Assembly (NCBI GenBank): GCA_964354485.1
Contig: CAYGZY010000044.1
Coordinates: forward strand, 1-36,214
Reading direction: 5' to 3'
DNA: 36,214 nt
Origin: an uncultured Chlorobiaceae bacterium
GTDB lineage: Bacteria; Bacteroidota; Ignavibacteria; UBA10030; SZUA-254
Position 1 is the stretch's first letter; every line of letters starts with the position of its first letter. Below, piece after piece: positions 14,602 through 32,707 of the stretch. Made by a program: the position numbers and the translations under genes. Below the pieces are notes generated by a model. The model worked only from the letters and a program-made list of their open reading frames with translations, was not told the DNA's origin and made no database searches.

Positions 14602-14665
14602 CTATACAATAGATCCCGACCGTAATCTTTTGAACCTATATCCGTAACCAACCGGAGGTATGTAC

Positions 14666-17600
14666 ATGAGCCCACAAAATAAAGTCAGACTTTCACTCAC
14701 GCCAGCGAGGATAACGATCTTCTATTATATATTCCTCGGCGGGTTGTGGATTCTCTTTTCGGACCTTCTCCTTTCTTCCTTTGCACCGACCCTTGCATGG
14801 TTGACACTTTTTCAGACATTCAAGGGCTGGTTCTTCGTCATCGTCACAGGATCACTTCTATACGGTCTCATCAAGTACTATGCTTACGAAAGAACAAAAG
14901 CAGAGAATGATCTCCGGAACAGTCACGGGCAATTGGTTTCAATTCTTGATGGAATCAATGACGGTTTTATCACTCTCGATCGCGATCTAAAATACACTTC
15001 GGTAAACAGACGGGCAGGGATTCTATTGAACCATACTCCCAAAGAATGCATCGGCAAATACTTCTGGGACATTTTTCCCGACGCCCATGATAACCAAGTA
15101 CGCAAAACCATGGAGGATGCACTACAATCACTGCAACCTGTCGAATTTGAATGCTTCGATGCGTCGGCACAGCGGTGGTTCGAAAACCGTGTTTACCCGT
15201 CGAAAGACGGGCTGACAATTTTTTTCCAGGACATAACACAACAGAAGGAAGCCGAAGCTGAACGACAACTGCAGCTGGCAATCATTGATAAAACCAGTGA
15301 TATTGTCGGTCTGGCAACACCTGATGGCATGCTTACTTACCTCAACCGTGCGGGGATCGAACTTATCGTCTTTAATCCCGCAGAGGACGGAACGAAAAAA
15401 AATATAACTGAATTCCATCCGCGGTGGGCATCTGACATTTTATTCAGTACTGGATTACCCACTGCGGCTGCGAAAGGATTATGGAAAGGGGAGTTGGCAA
15501 TATTTGATTCAAGCGGAATAGAAGTGCCTGTTTCTCAGCTTATTATGTCGCACAGGACCCCTAACGGCACTCTTACCTACTTCTCAAGCATCATTCGTGA
15601 AATTACCGATTTGAAACTGAAAGAGGAAGCCTTGAGAGGATCAGAAGAAAAATTCTCCAAGGCATTCCAGGCGAGCCCCAATGCTATGGTCATCACGAGG
15701 GTTTCCGACAATATAATTATCGACGTCAATGACAGTTTCATCAGAGCATCAGGATATGGCTATGAAGAAGTGGTGGGTAAGACAACCATTGACCTCAACT
15801 TGTGGAGAGAGCAATCCGACAGAAAAATGTTTCTCGCACAGCTCACCCGGGAGGGTAGTGTAACCAAACATATATTTTACTTTCAACATAAATTGGGCGA
15901 CATCCGGTGCGGATCTATTTCAGGCGAAACAATTCACATCGGGACGGAAAAATGTTACCTGAGTGTAATTGAGGATATCACAGATCAGAAGAACATCGAG
16001 GAAGAGCTTCGCGTCTCACGCGACTTTGCACTTGCCATTATTGATAGTCTTCCCGGTATATTTTACATCTACAATCCTCAGAACAATTCTGTCACCTGGA
16101 ATAAAACATTCAAGGAAATTACCGGATACACCGATGATGAGATCAAATCAATGGCATTCCTCGGAGAATTTGCCGAAGAGGACAGAGATAAACTCCGCAA
16201 CGGTCTCGCAGAAATTCTCAGAGACGGTTCCTCTTCAAGTACAGATGCACGACTGCTGACCAAGGACGGAAAGCAGGTCCTCTTCCATTTAACGGGAACC
16301 AGACTGAATATGAAAGATGAAAAATACATCATCGGTATGGGTATTGATATCACATCGCGCAAAAATGCAGAAGATTTGATACGTCAGGTAAACGAGAGGC
16401 TCCAATACCTGCTCACAGCCACATCCGTAGTGATATACACCGCATCCGTAGCAAAAGCCCACGCTGTTACGTTCGTAAGCGACAACGTAATAAATGTTAC
16501 CGGTTTTTCATCCGATGAATTCCTCAGCGGTGAGAATTTTTGGTGCGAGCAAATTCATCCAGAAGATAGAAAACAAACACAGAACGATCTCGACTCTCTG
16601 ATAACGAAAGGATCCAATACCTACGAATACCGCTTCCGCCAGAAAGACGGCCGGTACACATGGATCAGGGAAGAATGTAAACTGGTCCGTGATGCAAATG
16701 GCACTCCGAAGGAGATCATCGGATACTTTACGGACATCAGTAAGAGGAAGGAGGTTGAACAGGCGCTGAAGTTCAACGAGGAACGGCTCCGGCTTGCGCT
16801 AGAAGCAACGAGCGATGCACTCTGGGATTGGGACCTCTCAACAAACACGCTATACTACAGTCCCCGCTGGTACACCATGCTCGGATATGAGCCTCAATCA
16901 TTCGAGGCAAATTATGAAAATTGGGTTCGGCTCACTATGCCCGAGGATGTCGAACGTACAGTAAGAATCCTCCGGGATGCGATCGAAAACGGCGTCGGAT
17001 TCGAATCAGAATTCAGGATGAAAGCCGCAGACGGAAGCTGGCGATGGATCCTCGGACGTGGGAGGGCAACTGCTTGGGACGCACAAGGCAAAGCACTCCG
17101 TCTCACCGGAACTAACACCGACATGACTGAACGTCGGGAAGCTGAGAATGCACTTCGCATGTCTCGCGACCAGCTTCGAAACTACGGCGCAAGGCTTCAG
17201 CACATTCGCGAGGAAGAACGCACGTACATTGCGCGCGAAATTCATGATGAACTCGGACAAATACTTACAGGCCTCAAAATGGACCTGTCCTTCCTTGAAG
17301 AAATACTTCTAGAAGAAGCGAGACTCACACAGCGAAGAGAAGTGAGAGCGAAGATTGATTCTATGTCGAATCTCATGGATTCCGCCATAGGAAGCATGAG
17401 GAAAATCATAACGGAGTTGAGACCCGTGGTTCTTGATACCATGGGATTATCCGCGGCAATCGAATGGCAAGCAGAGGAATTTCAACAGCGGACCGGTATT
17501 GCATGTTTCTATACGTCGCCGCAGGACATGCCGACGCTTCCACGGGATTTTGCCACATCCATCTTCCGAATTCTGCAGGAATCGCTGACAAACATCATAC

Positions 17601-17842
17601 GGCATGCAGGAGCAAGTAGGACGACGATCACGATGAAGCTTGATCAAGGAAATCTGATACTTCTAGTGCACGACGACGGAAGAGGGATATCGGAGGACGA
17701 GATAGCCCAAAAAAAATCATTTGGTATAACGGGAATGAAGGAACGGGTGGAGCTGTTAGGAGGCAAGTTCAATATTCACGGAATTCAAGGAAAAGGCACC
17801 TTGCTCAGCGTAGAAATACCGCTTCCATCGCAACAAGCATAA
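14666..17842 (+). CDS. Multi-PAS sensor histidine kinase (2 TM, about six PAS/PAC modules, HisKA_3, HATPase_c; NarX/DegS class)
   Basis: Two N-terminal TM helices with almost no periplasmic loop. Six repeats each end in a PAC-like DIT.xK..E motif: FQDITQQKEAE, IREITDLKLKEE, IEDITDQKNIEE, GIDITSRKNAED, FTDISKRKEVEQ, NTDMTERREAEN. H-box REEERTYIAREIHDELGQ (HisKA_3), N-box LQESLTNIIRHAGA, G-boxes DDGRGI and GITGMKERVELLGGKF. The ORF opens at ATG 14660, but GGAGG (14654-14658) is spaced correctly only for ATG 14666. Confidence 0.9.
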   Translation: MSPQNKVRLSLTPARITIFYYIFLGGLWILFSDLLLSSFAPTLAWLTLFQTFKGWFFVIVTGSLLYGLIKYYAYERTKAENDLRNSHGQLVSILDGINDGFITLDRDLKYTSVNRRAGILLNHTPKECIGKYFWDIFPDAHDNQVRKTMEDALQSLQPVEFECFDASAQRWFENRVYPSKDGLTIFFQDITQQKEAEAERQLQLAIIDKTSDIVGLATPDGMLTYLNRAGIELIVFNPAEDGTKKNITEFHPRWASDILFSTGLPTAAAKGLWKGELAIFDSSGIEVPVSQLIMSHRTPNGTLTYFSSIIREITDLKLKEEALRGSEEKFSKAFQASPNAMVITRVSDNIIIDVNDSFIRASGYGYEEVVGKTTIDLNLWREQSDRKMFLAQLTREGSVTKHIFYFQHKLGDIRCGSISGETIHIGTEKCYLSVIEDITDQKNIEEELRVSRDFALAIIDSLPGIFYIYNPQNNSVTWNKTFKEITGYTDDEIKSMAFLGEFAEEDRDKLRNGLAEILRDGSSSSTDARLLTKDGKQVLFHLTGTRLNMKDEKYIIGMGIDITSRKNAEDLIRQVNERLQYLLTATSVVIYTASVAKAHAVTFVSDNVINVTGFSSDEFLSGENFWCEQIHPEDRKQTQNDLDSLITKGSNTYEYRFRQKDGRYTWIREECKLVRDANGTPKEIIGYFTDISKRKEVEQALKFNEERLRLALEATSDALWDWDLSTNTLYYSPRWYTMLGYEPQSFEANYENWVRLTMPEDVERTVRILRDAIENGVGFESEFRMKAADGSWRWILGRGRATAWDAQGKALRLTGTNTDMTERREAENALRMSRDQLRNYGARLQHIREEERTYIAREIHDELGQILTGLKMDLSFLEEILLEEARLTQRREVRAKIDSMSNLMDSAIGSMRKIITELRPVVLDTMGLSAAIEWQAEEFQQRTGIACFYTSPQDMPTLPRDFATSIFRILQESLTNIIRHAGASRTTITMKLDQGNLILLVHDDGRGISEDEIAQKKSFGITGMKERVELLGGKFNIHGIQGKGTLLSVEIPLPSQQA

Positions 17843-17929
17843 ACAACCGGAGAAAACGGTAATTCACCCGGGAATTGATTTTCTTGCGCTTTTTTCTGAT
17901 ATTGCACAAGAAGAGCTGGTGAGAGGAAT

Positions 17930-18586
17930 ATGCCAACCACACGAATGAAAATTCTTATCGCAGATGACCATCCCGTCGTTAGGGAAGGTATAAAGCAGAT
18001 TATCGGGAAGGCCCCCGATATGATCGTCGGTGGCGAAGCTCTGACGGGTCAGGAGGTCCTCGACAAAGTGAACCGGGAGAAGTGGGATGTTGTGATCCTC
18101 GATGTAAACATGCCCGGCAAGGATGGTTTTGAAGTCCTGCGGGAATTACGCCACGATCGTCCCAAACTGCCGATCCTGATTCTGAGCATATACCCTGAAG
18201 AACAGATCGGTGTGCGAATCCTGAGGGCAGGCGCATCCGGATTCCTCAATAAGGAGAGTGCACCGAAAGAACTTCTGAATGCGATCCGCAAAATCCACTC
18301 GGGTGGAAAGTTTGTCAGCCCTTCGCTTGCTGAGAAACTTGCCGTAGAAATTGAATTACGAACAGGCGGCGAGCCGCACACAAACCTTTCGGACCGTGAG
18401 TTCCAGGTACTTTGTTTCATAGCCTCCGGAAAGACAATTTCAGAAATTGGCAATCAACTCTCAATCAGTGAAAAAACCGTCCGAACCTACAGGGAGCGCC
18501 TCCTAAAAAAGATGAACTTAAAGAACGATGTAGAACTGACCCACTATGCTCTGAAACACCGGCTTATAGAATCCCTGAAAGAATAA
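17930..18586 (+). CDS. NarL/FixJ-family response regulator (REC plus LuxR-type HTH)
   Basis: ILIADDHPVVREG..., DVVILDVNMPGKDG, then LSDREFQVLCFIASGKTISEIGNQLSISEKTVRTYRERLLKKM. 87 nt downstream of the kinase. Confidence 0.95.
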   Translation: MPTTRMKILIADDHPVVREGIKQIIGKAPDMIVGGEALTGQEVLDKVNREKWDVVILDVNMPGKDGFEVLRELRHDRPKLPILILSIYPEEQIGVRILRAGASGFLNKESAPKELLNAIRKIHSGGKFVSPSLAEKLAVEIELRTGGEPHTNLSDREFQVLCFIASGKTISEIGNQLSISEKTVRTYRERLLKKMNLKNDVELTHYALKHRLIESLKE

Positions 18587-18696
18587 ACACAGTTCACCGG
18601 GGGTACTTTCTTCCTCCTCTGCTCTACCGCGGGATGTAGGCAATAGACTACACAATCCCCCTCCGCCACATACAACAATATCATCATTATATCTAT

Positions 18697-18724
18697 TTGA
18701 AGGAAGCCGCTTTCATGGTATATT
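18697..18724 (+). promoter_or_regulatory. Putative sigma70-type promoter of the stand-alone receiver gene
   Basis: TTGAAG (18697-18702), a 16-nt spacer, then TATATT (18719-18724) with TG at the extended -10 position (18716-18717). 35 nt upstream of ATG 18759. Confidence 0.4.
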
Positions 18725-18758
18725 ACAGCGTAAATCGAGTAAAGACCGCACGATAATA

Positions 18759-19139
18759 ATGCCATTACAAACTACCATATTCATTGTCGATGATTCATCC
18801 ATTATACGTGAACGAATACTGGAGAAATTAGGAATGCTGCCGATGATCTCAACGGTCTTACAGGCTAAGGATTACCAATCGGCGAATCAGATAATCGACA
18901 AAGAACAGCCGGATATCGCGATCCTCGATATTCAACTTCCGGACGGCAGCGGTATAGATTTACTTTCAAAGATAAAAAATATGCGGAAGGAAACGGTTGT
19001 TATAATGCTGACTAATTACCCGTATTCAATAATCAGAAAACGGTGTGACGAGTTAGGGGCTGATTACTTTTTCGATAAGTCAACTGAGTTTGAGAAAGTC
19101 CTTGAAGTCCTTGAAACCAGACAAACAGCAGTTCGTTAA
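18759..19139 (+). CDS. Single-domain response regulator (CheY-like receiver only)
   Basis: 126-aa ORF with IFIVDDSSIIRE, PDIAILDIQLPDGSG and IMLTNYP. The receiver fold has acidic pocket, phospho-Asp and conserved T/K positions. There is no output domain. Confidence 0.85.
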   Translation: MPLQTTIFIVDDSSIIRERILEKLGMLPMISTVLQAKDYQSANQIIDKEQPDIAILDIQLPDGSGIDLLSKIKNMRKETVVIMLTNYPYSIIRKRCDELGADYFFDKSTEFEKVLEVLETRQTAVR

Positions 19140-19282
19140 AATAAATCTTAACACAAGTCATGTAACCTCCATGAGCCCGGCGATCCCTCATCGAACCAGC
19201 TTCCATTCCCCTTGGATCGATGCTGGGCTTATGGATCTTTTTCCCTATTGAGGGATATAAGTCCTCTCCAACTGAATCCGCT

Positions 19283-20422
19283 TCAACGATCCACTGTAAT
19301 TGTCTCTACAACTTTTTTTACTTTCTTCCCGTCTTTTCTCATATAAGGTTTTTCCATCGGAGGCTGATGGTAGGCCGGTTCTTCTTCGAGGTCGGGATAA
19401 GTAAAGATTTCGTACTTGTAGTTACGGAGTATTATGCACTTTCCTGCTCTTCCCAGTACATATTGAGGGAGCAGGGGTATTTTACCGCCGCCGCCCGGCG
19501 CATCAATTACATAGTATGGTACCGCAAGCCCGGAAGTATATCCGCGCAATTTATCCATGATTTCCAATCCCTTGCTCACCGGTGTGCGGAAGTGGTTGGT
19601 TCCGCTCGTTATATCCGCCTGATACAGGTAGTACGGACGTACGCGCATGACCAAGAGTTTGCGCATCAATTCGAGCATCACGTCGGGATTATCGTTTATT
19701 CCTTTCATCAGTACGGTTTGATTTCCGAGCGGAATACCGGAATCCGAGAGCATATCGCATGCACGCCTGGCTTCAGGCGTACATTCCCAGGGATGGTTGA
19801 AATGCGTGTTGATGTAAATGGGGTGATATTTCTTCAGAATCCTGCACAGCTTTGGTGTAACGCGCTGAGGTAAAACACACGGCATTTTTGTTCCTATACG
19901 AATAATCTCCACATGAGGGATTTCACGTAATCTTTTGAGGATCCTTTCGAGCTGAAAATCCGTAAGCATGAGTGGATCACCCCCCGAGAGAATGACGTCT
20001 CGGACTCCGGAATGGCTTGCTATATATTCAATGCCATCCTGGATGTATTTCATGTTGATTTTCCGTGAGTCGCCCACTTTCCGCTTGCGTGTGCAGAAGC
20101 GGCAATACATCGAGCACTGGCTCGTAGTGAGGAACAGAACCCGGTCGGGATACCGGTGTACGATACTCGGGACCGGACTGTGAGTATCTTCCGCAAGCGG
20201 ATCTTCCGGTAAGCCATCTTTCTCCAGTTCAAGTGCATCTGGAATGCACTGAAGCCAGATTGGATCACCGGGCTGGCGTATCAAGCTCAGGTAGTAAGGA
20301 TTTATCCGGATGTGAAACAATAAGTTAAGTTTCTTTGCTGCTTGTTCGTCGAAACCGAATCGTTCGATCAGATCTTTTGCGCTATCAACGCTCTGACGCA
20401 GCATTTCCTGCCACAATTCCAT
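19283..20422 (-). CDS. kamA: KamA-family radical-SAM aminomutase (probable L-lysine 2,3-aminomutase)
   Basis: CSMYCRFCTRK (CxxxCxxC), SGGDPLML, PYYLYQAD, VIDAPGGGGKIPL; 379 aa. Last gene of a four-gene operon. Confidence 0.85.
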   Translation of the reverse strand: MELWQEMLRQSVDSAKDLIERFGFDEQAAKKLNLLFHIRINPYYLSLIRQPGDPIWLQCIPDALELEKDGLPEDPLAEDTHSPVPSIVHRYPDRVLFLTTSQCSMYCRFCTRKRKVGDSRKINMKYIQDGIEYIASHSGVRDVILSGGDPLMLTDFQLERILKRLREIPHVEIIRIGTKMPCVLPQRVTPKLCRILKKYHPIYINTHFNHPWECTPEARRACDMLSDSGIPLGNQTVLMKGINDNPDVMLELMRKLLVMRVRPYYLYQADITSGTNHFRTPVSKGLEIMDKLRGYTSGLAVPYYVIDAPGGGGKIPLLPQYVLGRAGKCIILRNYKYEIFTYPDLEEEPAYHQPPMEKPYMRKDGKKVKKVVETITVDR

Positions 20423-20431
20423 ACAGCTTAT

Positions 20432-20944
20432 TCAAGCCTCATGTTGTGAGACATATTTTCCATAGATAACAAGATCATCGCCCGCAGAATAGTAATCTCT
20501 TATGCGGGCTAATTCTTCGTACTGAGTCCGGAGGTAAAACTTTCGTGTGTTTTCGTATTTTGGAAGTGACGAAGTTTCTGCAATAATCAACTTTCCGTCC
20601 CTCTTCCTTACCCAATCTTCTACATCGCGGATCAGGTATTTTCCGATGCCCATGTTATGGCATGAAGTATCAACAGCGATCCAATAAAGGTCATATGTTC
20701 CCTTCGTCGCCGGAGTTGGTCCGATGCAGTAGTATCCCTGGACGGCTCCCTCATCAGAAACCGCAACGATAATGTAGTAATCGGTCTGATGAGGATTTTC
20801 TATCACGAGATCGATCAATTCCAGCGCAATCGCCACCTCTTCCTGCGTAAAAACCTCAGTTTCACGCAGGATCTTGTCGAGCGCGGCTCTGTCACCGTGC
20901 TGTATCGGACGAAGAGTACTCAGCTTATTCTCTCCAGTGCGCAA
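20432..20944 (-). CDS. GNAT-family N-acetyltransferase
   Basis: 170-aa ORF with the acetyl-CoA loop HNMGIGKYL and a GNAT-like beta-strand pattern (YYIIVAV..GAVQGYYCIGP..YDLYWIAV). The only in-frame start is TTG 20944, 25 nt inside the preceding gene. Confidence 0.78.
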   Translation of the reverse strand: MRTGENKLSTLRPIQHGDRAALDKILRETEVFTQEEVAIALELIDLVIENPHQTDYYIIVAVSDEGAVQGYYCIGPTPATKGTYDLYWIAVDTSCHNMGIGKYLIRDVEDWVRKRDGKLIIAETSSLPKYENTRKFYLRTQYEELARIRDYYSAGDDLVIYGKYVSQHEA

Positions 20945-22002
20945 TCAACAATTTTCTCAATTAATTCCTCAAACTTATAACCATAAACCCTGGACGACCG
21001 CGCAAAACCCGCATCGTCGGATATGTCAGGATTCGGATTCACCTCCAGAATGTACGGCTCATTATCGTTGCTGAGGCGGAAGTCGATTCTTGCATAATCC
21101 CGGCATCCGGTCAACCGATATGCTTTTAGCGCATACTCCTTCAGGAGTGTCTCGGTTTCTTGAGGTATTTTTGCCGGGCAGACTCCGTTCGTGCACTCAT
21201 ACTCTTCCGATCCCTTAACCCACTTGGCGTTATACGTAATGATGCGACGGTAGAGCTTAGGAAGTGTTGACATATCTATCTCGGATATCGGAAGGATGAT
21301 CTCCTTACGGTTACCGAGGATTGCCACATACAATTCCCTTCCATCGATGAACTCTTCGACAAGCGCCGGCTGATCGAACTGTTCGATGATGTACCTCACG
21401 CGTTTTTTGAGATCTGAGGGATTTTCGACGACTGAATCGGTGGAAATGCCCACGCTGGAATCTTCCTTAGAAGGTTTCACTATAAGGGGGTAGCGGAGGT
21501 CCTCGTTCAGTATAATTTTCATAGGGCTTTTGATTACCTGGTATCGCGGAGTGGGCAGATTGTTTGCCCGAAGGATATCTTTCACGCGCGCTTTATTCAA
21601 CGCCAATCCCAGCGTCAGTGCGTCGGAGCCTGTGTACGGTATGCCCAGCAGCTCGTATAGTCCTGCAACGTGCATTTCGTGAATCGATTGATTCCCGATA
21701 CTTTCGCAGAGGTTGAAGATCACATCCGGTTCTTCTTCCTTTAAAAATGCGATAAGTCGGCCGATGTCGCTGTCGACGTTGAATGTCGTGCTCTTGAATC
21801 CCATCACCTGCAATGCACGGCCAATATCTTCGCGTTCATCGAGTACACCAACCTCCGAGAGATCTACAAATTGCTTTTCACCTGTGTGCCCGGTTTTATT
21901 GCCTGCCTCAAGAATGCCGGCTTCCGAAATGAACTTCCGTTCAGCTTCTGTCTGAGTGACAGGCTCGTTATATACGACTGCAACATGGATTTTCTTTCTC
22001 AT
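20920..22002 (-). CDS. ATP-grasp ligase, D-alanine--D-alanine ligase-like family (paralogue 2)
   Basis: PDVIFNLCE, GIPYTGSDALTLGLALNKARVKDIL, PLIVKPSKEDSSVGI, YNAKW, CPAKI, CRDYARIDFRL, ILEVNPNPDI. ATG 22002 forms an ATGA overlap with the stop of paralogue 1; the track start 22008 is also an ATG. Confidence 0.8.
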   Translation of the reverse strand: MRKKIHVAVVYNEPVTQTEAERKFISEAGILEAGNKTGHTGEKQFVDLSEVGVLDEREDIGRALQVMGFKSTTFNVDSDIGRLIAFLKEEEPDVIFNLCESIGNQSIHEMHVAGLYELLGIPYTGSDALTLGLALNKARVKDILRANNLPTPRYQVIKSPMKIILNEDLRYPLIVKPSKEDSSVGISTDSVVENPSDLKKRVRYIIEQFDQPALVEEFIDGRELYVAILGNRKEIILPISEIDMSTLPKLYRRIITYNAKWVKGSEEYECTNGVCPAKIPQETETLLKEYALKAYRLTGCRDYARIDFRLSNDNEPYILEVNPNPDISDDAGFARSSRVYGYKFEELIEKIVDCALERIS

Positions 22003-23177
22003 ACACATACTCCTGTTAATGTACTCCGCCGGAAACCGGGGGCACTAATGATTTCAGTTCGTTCCGCAGCCAGCAGAAGAACCGTCTGAATTAATTGATT
22101 ATAACTTATTCCCGTGGCGCGTGCCGCCTTGGGGAAGCAGGAATTATCCTCCGGATTTGGCAAAATGCCGGGGAGAGGATTCAACTCGATGATGTGCGGG
22201 CGTCCTTCTCCATCCAGTCGAACATCGATGCGGCACCAATCCCGGCACCGTAAAAGTGTGAATGCCTCACGGCATATCCGTTCGATTTCCTCCCTCAGAC
22301 AGTCGGTGAGGCGAGCAGGGCAGGAAAATATTTCCAGAGGCTCCTCTGCACGATCCCATATCCACTTTGCCTCGTAAGAGTAAATTGGAGTGACGCCGGG
22401 AGGTAATGTGTCGAACTTTATTTCAACGATAGGAAGAACAGTGAGATTTCTGCCATTTCCGAGGATGGCTACGGTAAACTCCCGCCCGGGGAGATATTGT
22501 TCGATGAGAACAGGTTCATTATACCGCATCAGGATGCTTACCGCCTCTTTCCTGAGTTCATTCAAGTTGTGGGCAACTGAATTGTTGAAAATACCTTTAC
22601 TCGATCCCTCATGGAGCGGCTTAACAATAACGGGGAATGATACGCAGAGAGAGTGAATTTCTTCTTCATGGGAGATTACTTGGAAAGCCGGCGTGGGAAT
22701 GCCGTGAAAAGCCATAATTTCTTTCGCACGTGATTTATCCAGACATAATGCCAGTGTGAGAGGATCGGAACCGGTATAGGGAATATTTAACATTTCGAGC
22801 ATGGCAGGTATTTGCGCTTCACGGGAAACACCGGTTAGACCTTCGGCTATATTAAAAACGATTTCCGGCCTGAGTCCCCGTATCTTTACATACGCTTCCT
22901 CGTCTGCCTCTACCATTGTAACACTGTGATGCTCTGCGAGCGCTTCTCGAACAGCGTCAATAGTCGCAAACGTATCCCATTCGGCATACAAATCTGTTTC
23001 CGAATCATGATTGACTTGTGTAGAATGGAAATTGGAGATATGAGGGGAGATTTCCTTCGTCAAACTGGCAGGATCGTCTGATTTATCCTTCAGCGTATGT
23101 TGTGTTACATCTTCCTTTTTCTGATTGTAGACTAGAGCGACTCGCAACTGTTTACTCTGCGCAGGAAGATTTACCAA
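21999..23177 (-). CDS. ATP-grasp ligase, D-alanine--D-alanine ligase-like family (paralogue 1, with about a 50-aa N-terminal insertion)
   Basis: PEIVFNIAE, NIPYTGSDPLTLALCLDKSRAKEIM, PVIVKPLHEGSSKGI, YEAKW, CPARL, CRDWCRIDVRL, IIELNPLPGI. TTG start at 23177, first gene after the 23241-23269 promoter. Confidence 0.8.
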   Translation of the reverse strand: MVNLPAQSKQLRVALVYNQKKEDVTQHTLKDKSDDPASLTKEISPHISNFHSTQVNHDSETDLYAEWDTFATIDAVREALAEHHSVTMVEADEEAYVKIRGLRPEIVFNIAEGLTGVSREAQIPAMLEMLNIPYTGSDPLTLALCLDKSRAKEIMAFHGIPTPAFQVISHEEEIHSLCVSFPVIVKPLHEGSSKGIFNNSVAHNLNELRKEAVSILMRYNEPVLIEQYLPGREFTVAILGNGRNLTVLPIVEIKFDTLPPGVTPIYSYEAKWIWDRAEEPLEIFSCPARLTDCLREEIERICREAFTLLRCRDWCRIDVRLDGEGRPHIIELNPLPGILPNPEDNSCFPKAARATGISYNQLIQTVLLLAAERTEIISAPGFRRSTLTGVCV

Positions 23178-23240
23178 GTAACTCGTGCAATCCTCTCGAT
23201 ACGTTCAACATCAGTTTATTAAAACATCCTAACATGTATA

Positions 23241-23269
23241 ATATAATCAAATTATTTTTCTCTTGTCAA
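23241..23269 (-). promoter_or_regulatory. Near-consensus sigma70 promoter of the ATP-grasp/GNAT/KamA operon
   Basis: Minus strand reads TTGACA (23269..23264), a 17-nt spacer, then TTATAT (23246..23241), preceded by TGa (extended -10-like). It lies in the 156-bp AT-rich gap after recG, about 60 nt upstream of the TTG start. Confidence 0.55.
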
Positions 23270-32020: not shown

Positions 32021-32707
32021 TTATGAATACTGTATTGTTGATAAAAACTTGTTTCTTATCATCGTCGTCAACGGATTATCGGGATCCTTCATCCTTTCCG
32101 GATGCCATTGGAGCAGAATGCCGAATGGCAGCTCCCTGTCTAATTCCATTGCTTCAACGATCCCATCATCTGCACGCGCCGTAATCCTTAATCCAGTGCC
32201 GGGAACATCGACTCCCTGGTGATGATTTGAGTTTACCGTCCCGCCGATGACACCTGTAGTTGCATACAACAATGACGATTGATCGATCGCAATCGAGTGA
32301 TGATTTTCTATTTCTCCGACGGTTCTGTGCGATCTGTATCCGGCTTCTTCTATGTCAGGGAAAAGCGTTCCGCCAAAATGGACATTGATAAACTGCATCC
32401 CCCGGCATATTGCGAGCAAAGGCATATGCCTTGCCAGCGTTTTATCGACTACCCTCCGTTCAAAAGCATCGCGTTTCGGATCAACATCTTTTATCCGTTG
32501 ATGATTAGCGGGTCCGTTATAGAGCGACGGATCAACATCGTTCCCACCGGAGAGTAGCACGCCCTGACATCGGTTGAGTTCATCGAGATTGTCGTATATA
32601 TATGAAAGCTTTACAACCTCAACCGCTGAATTTCCCTTCATGAGCCAGTCAACGTAAAAGTTAAATTTATCCTTCGAAACCATCGTATCCGTGACGGCGA
32701 TTCTCAT
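32021..32707 (-). CDS. Class-I glutamine amidotransferase-like / peptidase C26 (gamma-glutamyl-GABA hydrolase family)
   Basis: LAICRGMQFINV (nucleophile Cys), NSNHHQGV, LLQWHPE; 228 aa. ATGA overlap with the lpxK stop (32704-32707). Confidence 0.8.
   Translation of the reverse strand: MRIAVTDTMVSKDKFNFYVDWLMKGNSAVEVVKLSYIYDNLDELNRCQGVLLSGGNDVDPSLYNGPANHQRIKDVDPKRDAFERRVVDKTLARHMPLLAICRGMQFINVHFGGTLFPDIEEAGYRSHRTVGEIENHHSIAIDQSSLLYATTGVIGGTVNSNHHQGVDVPGTGLRITARADDGIVEAMELDRELPFGILLQWHPERMKDPDNPLTTMIRNKFLSTIQYS

What the first reader, a model, noticed from the sequence alone, without database searches (positions are those of the whole stretch)
19283..23269. Four-gene operon of two tandem Ddl-like ATP-grasp ligases, a GNAT and a KamA-family aminomutase: candidate pathway for an uncharacterised beta-lysine conjugate
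Seen in the sequence: four co-directional minus-strand ORFs (23177 down to 19283) have coupled junctions. There is an ATGA stop/start overlap at 21999-22002. The stop of ATP-grasp 2 (20920) lies 25 nt inside the GNAT ORF, whose only in-frame start is TTG 20944. A 9-nt gap precedes the aminomutase. The operon follows the best promoter match in the window (TTGACA, 17 nt, TTATAT with TGn, 23241-23269), just after recG. The last gene has CSMYCRFCTRK, SGGDPL, PYYLYQAD and VIDAPGGGGK. The Asp in QAD and in VIDAPGGGG occupy positions where, as I recall, clostridial lysine 2,3-aminomutase holds the lysine epsilon-amino group and glutamate 2,3-aminomutases differ. Beta-lysine is therefore the likely product. 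The two ligases are clear paralogues, sharing IPYTGSD.LTL, IVKP..E.SS.GI, Y.AKW, CPA, CRD..RID.RL and E.NP.P. Established knowledge: KamA plus a GNAT (AblA/AblB) makes the osmolyte N-epsilon-acetyl-beta-lysine, and EpmB plus EpmA beta-lysylates EF-P. Neither system includes ATP-grasp ligases. Inference: two ATP-dependent amide-bond formations plus an acyl transfer on a beta-amino acid point to one of three things. These are a beta-lysine-containing di/tripeptide, a capped oligomer, or a peptide/protein modification. I know of no characterised pathway with exactly this composition.
Basis: partly seen in the sequence, partly recalled or inferred. Interest (0 to 1): 0.75.

Follow-up and report, generated by a model that had tools for sequence, protein, structure and literature searches.

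The report
Conserved beta-lysine ligase operon, product unknown
A real four-gene operon joins a lysine 2,3-aminomutase to two D-Ala-D-Ala-ligase-like enzymes and a small acetyltransferase; the same gene set recurs, reordered and sometimes fused, in several bacterial and archaeal phyla and matches no characterised pathway, so it probably makes an undescribed beta-lysine-containing peptide.

Summary
In detail: all four minus-strand ORFs, their junctions (ATGA overlap, 25-nt overlap, 9-nt gap), the quoted motifs and the promoter are there. The promoter is the only 11/12 sigma-70 match in the window and is conserved in five related loci.

The aminomutase keeps every lysine-binding and catalytic residue of clostridial lysine 2,3-aminomutase. 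It scores best against AblA but below its cut-off, and far below EpmB.

Both ligases have the Ddl fold and catalytic residues but altered substrate pockets. They form two old paralogue lineages, and every KamA-linked locus has one of each.

The GNAT is not AblB-like. Its orthologue is the orphan structure 2R7H from Desulfovibrio.

In a scan of species-representative genomes, 45 of 80 loci carry the collinear cassette (Ignavibacteria, Kryptonia, Planctomycetota, Desulfuromonadales). Desulfovibrio has it reordered, and Bathyarchaeia and Thermodesulfobacteriota lack the GNAT. Ligase-ligase and ligase-GNAT fusions occur next to KamA.

No recurrent transporter, target protein or characterised pathway was found. 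The best reading is a self-contained pathway: lysine to beta-lysine, two ATP-dependent amide bonds, then N-acylation, giving a small soluble conjugate. The product and its role are unknown.

The parts
23240..23269 (-). Sigma-70-type promoter TTGACA-N18-TATATT of the operon
   Evidence: 11/12 match. It is the only 11/12 match in the window. Both hexamers are invariant in L001 and L005-L008 while the flanking intergenic DNA diverges.
23160..23213 (-). Conserved leader block (TGTTgAAC..TCGAGAGG.TTGCACGAG..ACTTG.TA.ATCTTCCT) between the promoter and the coding region. It overlaps the alternative start TTG 23177. Candidate cis-regulatory element, function unknown.
   Evidence: Near-invariant in six loci. 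No Rfam family. The predicted hairpin has no compensatory changes and is no more stable than shuffles, z = +1.0. Found only in the closest relatives.
21999..23177 (-). ATP-grasp ligase 1 (grasp1 lineage), Ddl-like. Start is TTG 23177 or TTG 23147.
   Evidence: Pfam Dala_Dala_lig_C 130 bits. Best NCBIfam Ddl model 196 bits, below the 243 cut-off. PDB Ddl hits reach E 2e-35. It keeps K97, K144, E180, E187, K215, R255, D257, E270, N272, S150 and S281. It has H63E, Y216W and E68R.
20920..22002 (-). ATP-grasp ligase 2 (grasp2 lineage), Ddl-like with an acidic nucleophile pocket. Its ATG overlaps the grasp1 stop (ATGA).
   Evidence: Pfam Dala_Dala_lig_C 134 bits. Best NCBIfam Ddl model 176 bits, below the 243 cut-off. 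AF2 model pLDDT 84, pTM 0.85; the top 50 Foldseek PDB hits are all Ddl or D-Ala:D-Lac ligases, with TM up to 0.86. Catalytic residues are kept. Substitutions: G149D, S150A, G276D, H280D, S281A, L282G, H63E, Y216W.
20432..20944 (-). Small GNAT N-acyltransferase. TTG start lies 25 nt inside grasp2.
   Evidence: Pfam Acetyltransf_1 39 bits. NCBIfam gives only rimI at 34 bits, below the 86 cut-off. Orthologue of PDB 2R7H, E 1.5e-31. That protein sits in the KamA-grasp-grasp-GNAT operon of Oleidesulfovibrio.
19283..20422 (-). KamA-family radical SAM/PLP 2,3-aminomutase, predicted lysine 2,3-aminomutase. Short form that lacks the clostridial C-terminal region.
   Evidence: TIGR00238 300 bits, above the 199 cut-off. 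AblA 466 bits (cut-off 525), Glu 422 (650), Arg 349 (600), EpmB 236 (369). 405 bits to 2A5H, with CxxxCxxC, R134, D293, D330 and K337 conserved and C268 changed to N.

Best explanation
The four genes form one operon that encodes a self-contained cytoplasmic pathway.

Step 1 is well supported by sequence. The KamA-type radical SAM/PLP enzyme converts L-lysine to beta-lysine.

Steps 2 and 3 are inferred. Two non-redundant Ddl-fold ATP-grasp ligases, one of each old paralogue lineage, each form one amide bond through an acyl-phosphate intermediate. They join beta-lysine to one or two further building blocks. These are either common amino acids or more beta-lysine, because no other precursor-making enzyme is conserved alongside.
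- grasp1 keeps the Ddl serine that holds the carboxylate of the incoming amino acid, so it probably accepts an amino-acid-type nucleophile.
- grasp2 has replaced that site with three aspartates, so it probably accepts a cationic amine such as a free amino group of a beta-lysine residue.

Step 4 is inferred. The GNAT N-acylates a remaining amino group, most simply by acetylation. This either caps or neutralises the product, or protects one amine.

The product would be a small soluble N-acyl beta-lysine di- or tripeptide, or a short oligomer. Its most likely use is as a compatible solute or a polyamine-like cation. Both the identity of the product and its role are unknown.
For: Operon: coupled junctions and a single conserved promoter.

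Lysine specificity: R134, D293, D330, K337 and the Fe-S cysteines are conserved in the window protein and in 59 of 59 cassette-linked homologues. The best HMM is AblA in six phylogenetically distant members.

Both ligases are catalytically competent and Ddl-folded. Their pockets are lineage-specific and conserved.

Functional linkage:
- 45 of 80 genome loci are collinear.
- Desulfovibrionales have the reordered form KamA-grasp1-grasp2-GNAT, as do other metagenomic lineages.
- Every KamA-linked locus that holds both ligase genes has one grasp1-type and one grasp2-type.
- A grasp1-grasp2 fusion lies next to KamA and the GNAT (L090). A grasp2-GNAT fusion lies next to KamA and grasp1 (L092).

Small-molecule reading:
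- Fusions of consecutive enzymes are typical of metabolic pathways.
- No conserved candidate target protein, transporter or envelope gene recurs across phyla.
- The module occurs in Archaea (Bathyarchaeia) as well as Bacteria.
- The omega-loop Lys that closes the Ddl active site over small substrates is retained.

An accessory GNAT-deacetylase (HDAC-family) fusion occurs in two lineages. This fits reversible N-acetylation of an amine metabolite.
Against: No product was observed. The substrate assignments for the ligases rest only on residue comparison with E. coli DdlB.

D293 and D330 could also accommodate another basic amino acid such as ornithine or arginine. The stereochemistry of the beta-lysine is unknown.

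The GNAT is missing within 10 kb in Bathyarchaeia and Thermodesulfobacteriota loci, so acylation is not essential to the core chemistry.

Steady vertical inheritance next to recG in Ignavibacteria (29 of 45 loci) and about 80% identity of the aminomutase across the class look more like a housekeeping function than a typical stress-solute pathway.

The literature search was limited to open-access full text and to ten queries.
Confidence: 0.5

Rival explanations
1. The ligase pair polymerises beta-lysine, alone or with a second amino acid, into a longer polyamide. This would be a cyanophycin-like nitrogen store or a polycation that substitutes for polyamines. The GNAT would prime, cap or tune the charge of the chains.
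For: The core is only the aminomutase plus two ligases. The grasp2 pocket is acidic and suited to a cationic growing chain. A tandem grasp fusion is followed by a Peptidase_S58 (DmpA/BapA family) gene in L089. A GNAT-HDAC fusion resembling polyamine acetylation/deacetylation pairs is present in L087 and L095.
Against: Ddl-fold enzymes with a closing omega loop are known as dipeptide ligases, not polymerases. No recurrent depolymerase was found: S58 was seen once, and not next to a KamA within the short contig. No granule or export proteins recur.
Confidence: 0.15
2. The ligases attach beta-lysine to a protein or ribosomal peptide, and the GNAT acetylates the adduct. This would be an EF-P-like beta-lysylation or a RimK/TTL-like C-terminal tailing.
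For: Beta-lysylation of EF-P by EpmA/EpmB is an established precedent (own knowledge). Weak or faint Pfam RimK and TTL hits on grasp2 and its homologues. The GNAT is weakly RimI-like. The cassette behaves as a core, syntenic gene set in Ignavibacteria.
Against: The aminomutase is far from EpmB (236 bits against a 369 cut-off) and no EpmA was found. No conserved neighbouring substrate gene. The module occurs in Archaea, whose aIF5A is hypusinated (own knowledge). The closest sequences and folds are all small-molecule Ddl enzymes. Enzyme fusions suggest metabolite channelling.
Confidence: 0.1
3. The Ddl-like ligases modify peptidoglycan precursors or another envelope component with beta-lysine.
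For: The ligases are homologous to Ddl. One distant solitary grasp2-like gene is followed by PBP5-type DD-carboxypeptidase and M23 peptidase genes (L046).
Against: The module is present in Bathyarchaeia, which lack murein. The D-Ala-binding residues are changed. No mur, dcw or envelope genes recur next to the cassette. The window context is recG and two-component regulators.
Confidence: 0.05
4. Only the aminomutase and the GNAT work together, as an AblA/AblB-type N-epsilon-acetyl-beta-lysine osmolyte pathway. The two ligases would be unrelated neighbours.
For: AblA is the best-scoring equivalog model. A GNAT is adjacent.
Against: The NCBIfam scan of the GNAT returned only a weak rimI match and no AblB model. 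The ligases are coupled by overlapping junctions. They co-occur with KamA in every lineage, even where the GNAT is absent, and they are fused to each other or to the GNAT.
Confidence: 0.03

Closest known systems
AblA/AblB (lysine 2,3-aminomutase plus beta-lysine N6-acetyltransferase; N-epsilon-acetyl-beta-lysine osmolyte of methanogens and some bacteria)
   Same: A KamA-type aminomutase that scores best on the AblA model and keeps the lysine-binding residues. A GNAT in the same operon. Beta-lysine as the intermediate.
   Different: The aminomutase is below the AblA cut-off (466 against 525) and lacks the C-terminal ~50 model positions. The GNAT is a different, smaller family (2R7H type). Two obligatory ATP-grasp ligases are added. 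The GNAT is dispensable in some lineages.
EpmA/EpmB(/EpmC) beta-lysylation of EF-P
   Same: A short-form KamA-family enzyme supplies beta-lysine, which a second enzyme then joins through an amide bond.
   Different: The EpmB model scores only 236 bits (cut-off 369). The coupling enzymes are ATP-grasp (acyl-phosphate) ligases, not a LysRS-like adenylating enzyme. No EF-P linkage. The module is present in Archaea.
D-alanine--D-alanine ligase (Ddl/VanA family)
   Same: The same three-domain fold (TM up to 0.86). All ATP/Mg and transition-state residues are conserved, and the omega-loop Lys215 is retained.
   Different: Below all Ddl HMM cut-offs. His63 is changed to Glu and Tyr216 to Trp in both. 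grasp2 loses Ser150, Ser281 and Leu282 and gains three Asp. A ~40-aa low-confidence insertion follows strand 1. Not in a cell-wall gene cluster.
Ngg/AsnO pathway for N-acetylglutaminylglutamine amide (NAGGN); also NAT8L plus RIMKLA/B for N-acetyl-aspartyl-glutamate (own knowledge)
   Same: The logic of a GNAT combined with ATP-grasp ligation to make a small N-acetylated peptide. GNAT/ATP-grasp fusions exist in both.
   Different: The ligases here are Ddl-type, not RimK-type. There are two of them. No amidotransferase. A beta-amino acid made by a radical SAM enzyme is the dedicated precursor.
Glutathione synthesis (GshA/GshB; GshF with a Ddl-like ATP-grasp domain) (own knowledge)
   Same: Two successive ATP-dependent ligations that build a tripeptide-sized metabolite. 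A Ddl-related ATP-grasp is used.
   Different: No gamma-glutamylcysteine ligase. No evidence for a thiol component. Aminomutase and GNAT are added.
Bacillus subtilis kamA (yodO) operon with yodP (beta-lysine acetyltransferase) and yodQ (deacetylase) (own knowledge)
   Same: KamA with an acetyltransferase. A deacetylase appears in some relatives (the GNAT-HDAC fusion in L087 and L095).
   Different: No ATP-grasp ligases in the Bacillus operon. Different acetyltransferase and deacetylase families. The Bacillus genes are linked to catabolic CoA-transferase and aminotransferase genes.

Membership tests
KamA family radical SAM 2,3-aminomutases (TIGR00238) | Subfamily HMM above cut-off; CxxxCxxC cluster; PLP-binding Lys | tested here: met
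   300.2 bits against a cut-off of 199.2. CSMYCRFC and the K337 equivalent are aligned to 2A5H.
AblA lysine 2,3-aminomutase equivalog (TIGR03820) | Whole-protein score of at least 525.4 bits | tested here: not met
   466.3 bits in the window protein. 447-503 bits in six cassette homologues from other phyla. Matches end at model positions ~361-373 of 417.
Lysine 2,3-aminomutase (function) | Residues that bind the lysine carboxylate (R134) and the epsilon-ammonium (D293, D330) of C. subterminale LAM | tested here: met
   All are conserved in the window protein and in 59 of 59 cassette-linked homologues. The role of these residues is from the literature (own knowledge).
AblA/AblB osmolyte system | AblB-type beta-lysine N-acetyltransferase as partner | tested here: not met
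   The NCBIfam scan of the GNAT returned only rimI at 34.2 bits (cut-off 86.4) and no AblB model. The closest structure is the orphan 2R7H.
AblA/AblB osmolyte system | Salt-induced expression and accumulation of N-epsilon-acetyl-beta-lysine | not testable with these tools
   Needs culture, RT-qPCR and NMR/LC-MS.
EpmA/EpmB EF-P beta-lysylation | EpmB equivalog score of at least 369.3 bits | tested here: not met
   235.6 bits. 220-265 bits in homologues.
EpmA/EpmB EF-P beta-lysylation | LysRS-like EpmA ligase encoded with or near the aminomutase | tested here: not met
   No class II aaRS domain in any of the 29 window ORFs scanned. None recurs in related loci. The rest of the genome was not available.
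D-alanine--D-alanine ligase (EC 6.3.2.4) | Ddl subfamily HMM above cut-off (243 / 245.65 bits) | tested here: not met
   grasp1 196.2 / 164.7 bits; grasp2 176.4 / 155.7 bits.
D-alanine--D-alanine ligase (EC 6.3.2.4) | ATP-grasp fold with catalytic K97, K144, E180, E187, K215, R255, D257, E270, N272 | tested here: met
   Conserved in 59 grasp1 and 61 grasp2 sequences: invariant at most positions, 56/59 at K215 of grasp1 and 57/61 at E270 of grasp2. The Foldseek top 50 are all Ddl or D-Ala:D-Lac ligases.
D-alanine--D-alanine ligase (EC 6.3.2.4) | D-Ala site residues H63, S150, Y216, S281, L282 | tested here: not met
   H63E and Y216W in both. grasp2 also has S150A, S281A, L282G, G149D, G276D and H280D. 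grasp1 keeps S150 and S281 but has L282C.
NAGGN synthesis (Ngg/AsnO) | GNAT functionally coupled to an ATP-grasp ligase | tested here: met
   grasp2-GNAT fusion proteins exist (P0256, P0257, P0262, P0270, P0338). One lies next to KamA (L092).
NAGGN synthesis (Ngg/AsnO) | RimK-type ATP-grasp and an AsnO-type amidotransferase | tested here: not met
   The ligases are Dala_Dala_lig_C type. No asparagine-synthase-like gene is in the window or recurs in loci.
Cyanophycin synthetase | ATP-grasp domain fused to a Mur-ligase-like domain | tested here: not met
   No Mur ligase domain in either ligase.
Known anti-phage defence systems (PADLOC) | Match to a defence-system protein model | tested here: not met
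   Only a generic radical SAM hit to pVip at E 7e-4.

The most novel reading that the evidence does not exclude
The aminomutase plus the heterotypic pair of Ddl-like ligases makes a previously unknown class of cellular metabolite. Candidates are a glutathione- or trypanothione-sized beta-lysine tripeptide, or an oligo-beta-lysine polycation that stands in for polyamines. Acetylation and deacetylation would control its charge. On this reading it is a core cytoplasmic component of Ignavibacteria, many Desulfobacterota, some Planctomycetota and Bathyarchaeia. It would also explain the orphan structure 2R7H.
Probability: 0.35. Interest if true: 0.8.

Novelty: new variant of a known kind. Interest (0 to 1): 0.62.

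Why it matters
Only two cellular roles for beta-lysine are established outside antibiotic biosynthesis: the osmolyte N-epsilon-acetyl-beta-lysine and the EF-P modification. This operon would be a third route. It couples the aminomutase to two acyl-phosphate-forming ligases. It is inherited as a core syntenic block across a whole bacterial class and is shared with sulfate reducers, planctomycetes and archaea.

Finding the product would assign functions to several things:
- a large branch of proteins now annotated as 'D-alanine--D-alanine ligase' (1,719 clusters at 50% identity score E < 1e-30 against grasp2);
- a structural-genomics orphan (2R7H);
- a distinct KamA clade.

It might also reveal a new compatible solute, polycation or cofactor-like peptide of anaerobes. 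Because Oleidesulfovibrio alaskensis G20 carries the module and is genetically tractable, the question can be tested directly.

Tried and rejected
Literature: ten full-text searches found nothing that describes this gene set. They combined aminomutase, KamA, beta-lysine, ATP-grasp, D-alanine ligase, GNAT, Ignavibacteria, 2R7H and Dde_3041-3045.

Papers not held: Iyer/Aravind 2009 on amidoligases, Ruzicka and Frey 2007 on glutamate 2,3-aminomutase, Pflueger 2003 on ablAB and Sagot 2010 on NAGGN.

Papers read without result: the D. vulgaris sigma-54 regulome paper and the G20 transposon-library paper do not mention these genes.

Riboswitch idea for the conserved leader: no Rfam hit, no compensatory changes in the conserved hairpin, and a fold no better than shuffles. 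It is left as an unexplained conserved element.

Structure: the AF2 model and Foldseek search of grasp2 returned only Ddl or D-Ala:D-Lac ligases. They gave no better functional analogue than the sequence search.

Defence system: rejected.

Recurrent extra genes: a search for transporters, peptidases or target proteins across phyla found none beyond sigma-54 activators in Desulfobacterota.

No intrinsic terminator was detected downstream of the aminomutase on the minus strand.

Full report
OBSERVATION. The region holds four co-directional minus-strand ORFs:
- 21999-23177 (392 aa from TTG)
- 20920-22008 (362 aa)
- 20432-20944 (170 aa, TTG)
- 19283-20422 (379 aa)

The grasp1 stop TGA (21999-22001) shares bases with the ATG at 22002 (ATGA). 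The 360-aa homologues start at that ATG. The grasp2 stop lies 25 nt inside the GNAT ORF, whose only canonical upstream start is TTG 20944. Nine bases separate the GNAT stop from the aminomutase ATG. All quoted motifs are present.

The two ligases are paralogues: 38% identity over 272 aa, E 6e-61.

The promoter-like site TTGACA-N18-TATATT at 23269..23240 is the only 11/12 match in the 36-kb window. Such matches are no more frequent than in shuffled sequence. However, both hexamers of this one are invariant in five related loci whose surrounding spacer has diverged.

One correction concerns the grasp1 start. It may be TTG 23177 (M-x-x-L-P, conserved) or TTG 23147 (an ATG in L001 and L006, giving MRVALVYN).

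CONTEXT. The window is a housekeeping stretch of an uncultured member of the Ignavibacteria. It carries:
- RNase HII, an Omp85 protein, a MiaB/RimO-type enzyme, CdsA and a heptosyltransferase;
- DnaG, a PAS histidine kinase and two response regulators;
- the cassette;
- RecG, GpsA, PlsY, IspD, QueA, PPDK, a C26 peptidase, LpxK and LpxB.

The aminomutase is 78-87% identical to proteins of many Ignavibacteria/Bacteroidota MAGs.

THE FOUR PROTEINS.

(i) Aminomutase. It passes only the generic KamA subfamily model (300 bits against a cut-off of 199). It scores 466 bits on AblA (cut-off 525), 422 on glutamate 2,3-aminomutase (650), 349 on arginine 2,3-aminomutase (600) and 236 on EpmB (369). It aligns to C. 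subterminale lysine 2,3-aminomutase 2A5H at 405 bits. The CxxxCxxC cluster, R134, D293, D330 and the PLP lysine K337 are conserved. The zinc ligand C268 is Asn, and the C-terminal region is missing. The seven key residues (the three cluster cysteines, R134, D293, D330, K337) are identical in 59 of 59 cassette-linked homologues. Six homologues from Desulfovibrio, Bathyarchaeia, Planctomycetota, Desulfuromonadaceae and two metagenomic lineages give the same HMM ranking, always below the AblA cut-off. This is therefore a distinct short-form clade nearest to AblA/KamA. It is very probably specific for lysine, though another basic amino acid is not excluded. The stereochemistry of its product is unknown. 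The role of D293 and D330, and their replacement in glutamate 2,3-aminomutase, come from my own knowledge of the literature and were not tested here.

(ii, iii) Ligases. Both carry Dala_Dala_lig_C (130 and 134 bits) but fall below every Ddl cut-off (196 and 176 bits against 243). Their nearest solved structures by sequence are essentially all D-Ala-D-Ala, D-Ala-D-Lac or D-Ala-D-Ser ligases. The only other hit is a weak one to an L-amino acid ligase at E 1.5e-6. An AF2 model of grasp2 (pLDDT 84, pTM 0.85) has a low-confidence insertion at residues 16-51. It matches only Ddl or D-Ala:D-Lac ligases in the top 50 Foldseek hits, with TM up to 0.86.

I confirmed that my E. coli DdlB sequence is identical to 2DLN/1IOV. 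I then tabulated DdlB positions over 59 grasp1 and 61 grasp2 sequences:
- Both keep K97, K144, E180, E187, K215, R255, D257, E270 and N272, so both should be active ligases.
- Both have His63 changed to Glu (invariant) and Tyr216 changed to Trp.
- grasp1 keeps EGSS (S150), G276 and S281, with L282C and E68R.
- grasp2 has G149D, S150A, G276D, H280D, S281A and L282G.

From this I infer, but have not shown, that grasp1 still binds a nucleophile with a nearby carboxylate. grasp2 offers an acidic pocket for a cationic amine.

(iv) GNAT. It has Acetyltransf_1, only a weak RimI similarity and no AblB-type match. Its one strong structural relative is 2R7H, annotated 'putative D-alanine N-acetyltransferase' (E 1.5e-31). 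This is a structural-genomics entry whose sequence is 99% identical to a protein of Oleidesulfovibrio.

CONSERVATION. I searched grasp2 against 1.84 billion representative proteins. It found 1,719 clusters at E < 1e-30. These include ~500-550-aa ligase-GNAT fusions and ~600-790-aa tandem ligase fusions.

A scan of one genome per GTDB species, using a family alignment, returned 80 loci:
- 45 have the collinear order grasp1-grasp2-GNAT-KamA, with median HSP gaps of 18-48 nt. In 29 of these, recG is immediately upstream.
- 3 more are cut by contig ends.
- 5 have KamA with one or both ligases but no GNAT within 10 kb. These are three Bathyarchaeia and two Thermodesulfobacteriota loci.
- 27 carry only a solitary grasp2-like paralogue.

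Full cassettes occur in Ignavibacteria, Kryptonia, Planctomycetota and Desulfuromonadales.

In Oleidesulfovibrio and Desulfovibrio mangrovi the order is KamA-grasp1-grasp2-GNAT, behind a sigma-54 activator. Other lineages show further arrangements:
- KamA - CxxCxxCC protein - grasp - grasp - GNAT-HDAC fusion - GNAT (L095/L096);
- KamA - grasp1-grasp2 fusion - GNAT (L090);
- grasp1 - KamA - grasp2-GNAT fusion (L092).

Every KamA-linked locus that holds both ligase genes has exactly one ligase of each lineage. L066 shows only grasp2 within its 11-kb stretch.

An all-against-all comparison of flanking ORFs across phyla found nothing else that recurs, apart from sigma-54 activators in Desulfobacterota. 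No transporter, peptidase, candidate target protein or envelope gene turned up.

INTERPRETATION. Several points show that these genes work together as a mobile, self-contained module whose core is the aminomutase plus a heterotypic ligase pair:
- the coupled junctions;
- the single conserved promoter;
- conservation through rearrangement;
- two kinds of gene fusion.

The most economical mechanism has four steps:
1. Lysine is converted to beta-lysine.
2. and 3. Two ATP-dependent amide bonds are formed.
4. An N-acylation tailors or regulates the product.

Four observations favour a small soluble product over a protein or cell-wall modification:
- consecutive enzymes are fused;
- no conserved partner protein was found;
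- the module occurs in Archaea;
- the ligases keep the closed Ddl architecture.

Only beta-lysine has a dedicated biosynthetic enzyme. The other building blocks must therefore be common metabolites or more beta-lysine.

In two lineages a GNAT-HDAC-family fusion is present (60% identical between L087 and L095). This suggests reversible acetylation, as in polyamine homeostasis or protecting-group chemistry.

Two things argue against a purely stress-induced osmolyte. The aminomutase is about 80% identical across Ignavibacteria. The cassette also has a fixed position next to recG, which points to a constitutive core role. I give 0.5 to the small beta-lysine peptide model. I give 0.15 to a longer polymer, 0.1 to protein modification, 0.05 to envelope modification and 0.03 to a plain AblAB-type pathway with bystander ligases.

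COMPARISON WITH KNOWN SYSTEMS. The module resembles AblA/AblB in its first enzyme and in having a GNAT. It resembles NAGGN and NAAG synthesis in pairing a GNAT with ATP-grasp ligation. It resembles glutathione synthesis in using two successive ligations. It fails the membership tests for AblA, AblB, EpmB/EpmA, true Ddl, Ngg/AsnO and cyanophycin synthetase (see the table).

No paper in the held library describes it. NCBI names the ligases only 'ATP-grasp domain-containing protein' or 'D-alanine--D-alanine ligase'.

I rate it a new variant of a known kind. The enzyme families and the logic are familiar, but the combination is uncharacterised and the product is probably new.

LIMITS. No chemistry was observed. 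The substrate inferences rest on alignment to DdlB. The literature search covered open-access full text only. The genome outside the window was not available, so an EpmA, an AblB or a canonical Ddl elsewhere in it cannot be excluded.

Noticed in passing
window 23160-23213 (minus strand): A ~55-nt leader block between the promoter and the grasp1 coding region is nearly invariant in six related loci, although the rest of the spacer has diverged. It contains an SD-like GAGAGGA that can pair with ATCTTCC around the alternative TTG start. There is no Rfam match, no compensatory changes in that hairpin and no unusual stability. It was found only in the closest relatives.
   Followed up: partly
L067 9095-11074; L055 9076-11062; L049 8965-10954: Melioribacter and Ignavibacterium genomes carry a solitary grasp2-type paralogue (41-47% identity, same D149/A150/W216/D276 pocket). 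It is paired divergently with a 278-aa protein that has weak Peptidase_C39 or BtrH_N similarity. This may be a separate ligase/papain-like system.
   Followed up: partly
L087 9629-11386; L095 6211-8004: A 585-597-aa GNAT-HDAC (Hist_deacetyl) fusion, 60% identical between the two, sits beside or inside the cassette in Desulfovibrio mangrovi and in a metagenomic lineage. It is not found in Ignavibacteria loci or in the window.
   Followed up: partly
L095 3671-4195; L048 9357-9983: A small Cys-rich protein lies next to the aminomutase or ligase in two distant lineages. L095 has a faint PF03692 CxxCxxCC hit. L048 has a similar C-x2-C...CC N-terminus but no Pfam hit. It may be an accessory redox or metal partner of the radical SAM enzyme.
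   Followed up: no
L089 670-3823: A tandem ligase-ligase fusion (675 aa) is followed directly by a Peptidase_S58 (DmpA/BapA family) gene. Members of that family cleave N-terminal D- or beta-amino acids (own knowledge). The contig is too short to show whether a KamA is nearby.
   Followed up: no
L046 236-3864: In a deltaproteobacterial MAG, a solitary grasp2-like gene is followed by a PBP5-type DD-carboxypeptidase and an M23 peptidase. Some branches of this ligase family may act on the cell wall.
   Followed up: no
L076 8769-9224 and 1125-3748: In a Thermodesulfobacteriota locus, a PAS histidine kinase and a sigma-54 response regulator lie between grasp1 and KamA. An MscL mechanosensitive channel gene lies about 1.4 kb downstream of grasp2. 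This is a weak hint of osmotic regulation.
   Followed up: no
window 14660-19139 (plus strand): A 1060-aa multi-PAS histidine kinase, a LuxR-type response regulator and a single-domain receiver are convergent with the cassette. The same trio follows the cassette in L001/L002 but not in L003/L004, so the linkage is lineage-specific.
   Followed up: partly
window 19220-19873 (plus strand): A 217-aa antisense ORF lies almost entirely inside the aminomutase gene. It was not examined. It is probably spurious, because the opposite strand encodes a protein about 80% conserved across the class.
   Followed up: no
L093 4339-5656 versus L094 4340-5656; L041 11089-11566; L056 11495-12528: The aminomutase (L093, L056) or the GNAT (L041) is split into two frames in some assemblies that are otherwise nearly identical to intact loci. 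These are probably sequencing frameshifts rather than pseudogenes.
   Followed up: no
window 32021-32707 (minus strand): A Peptidase_C26 / class-I glutamine amidotransferase-like gene (PuuD-like gamma-glutamyl hydrolase family) sits between PPDK and lpxK, 9 kb from the cassette. No linkage to the cassette was examined.
   Followed up: no
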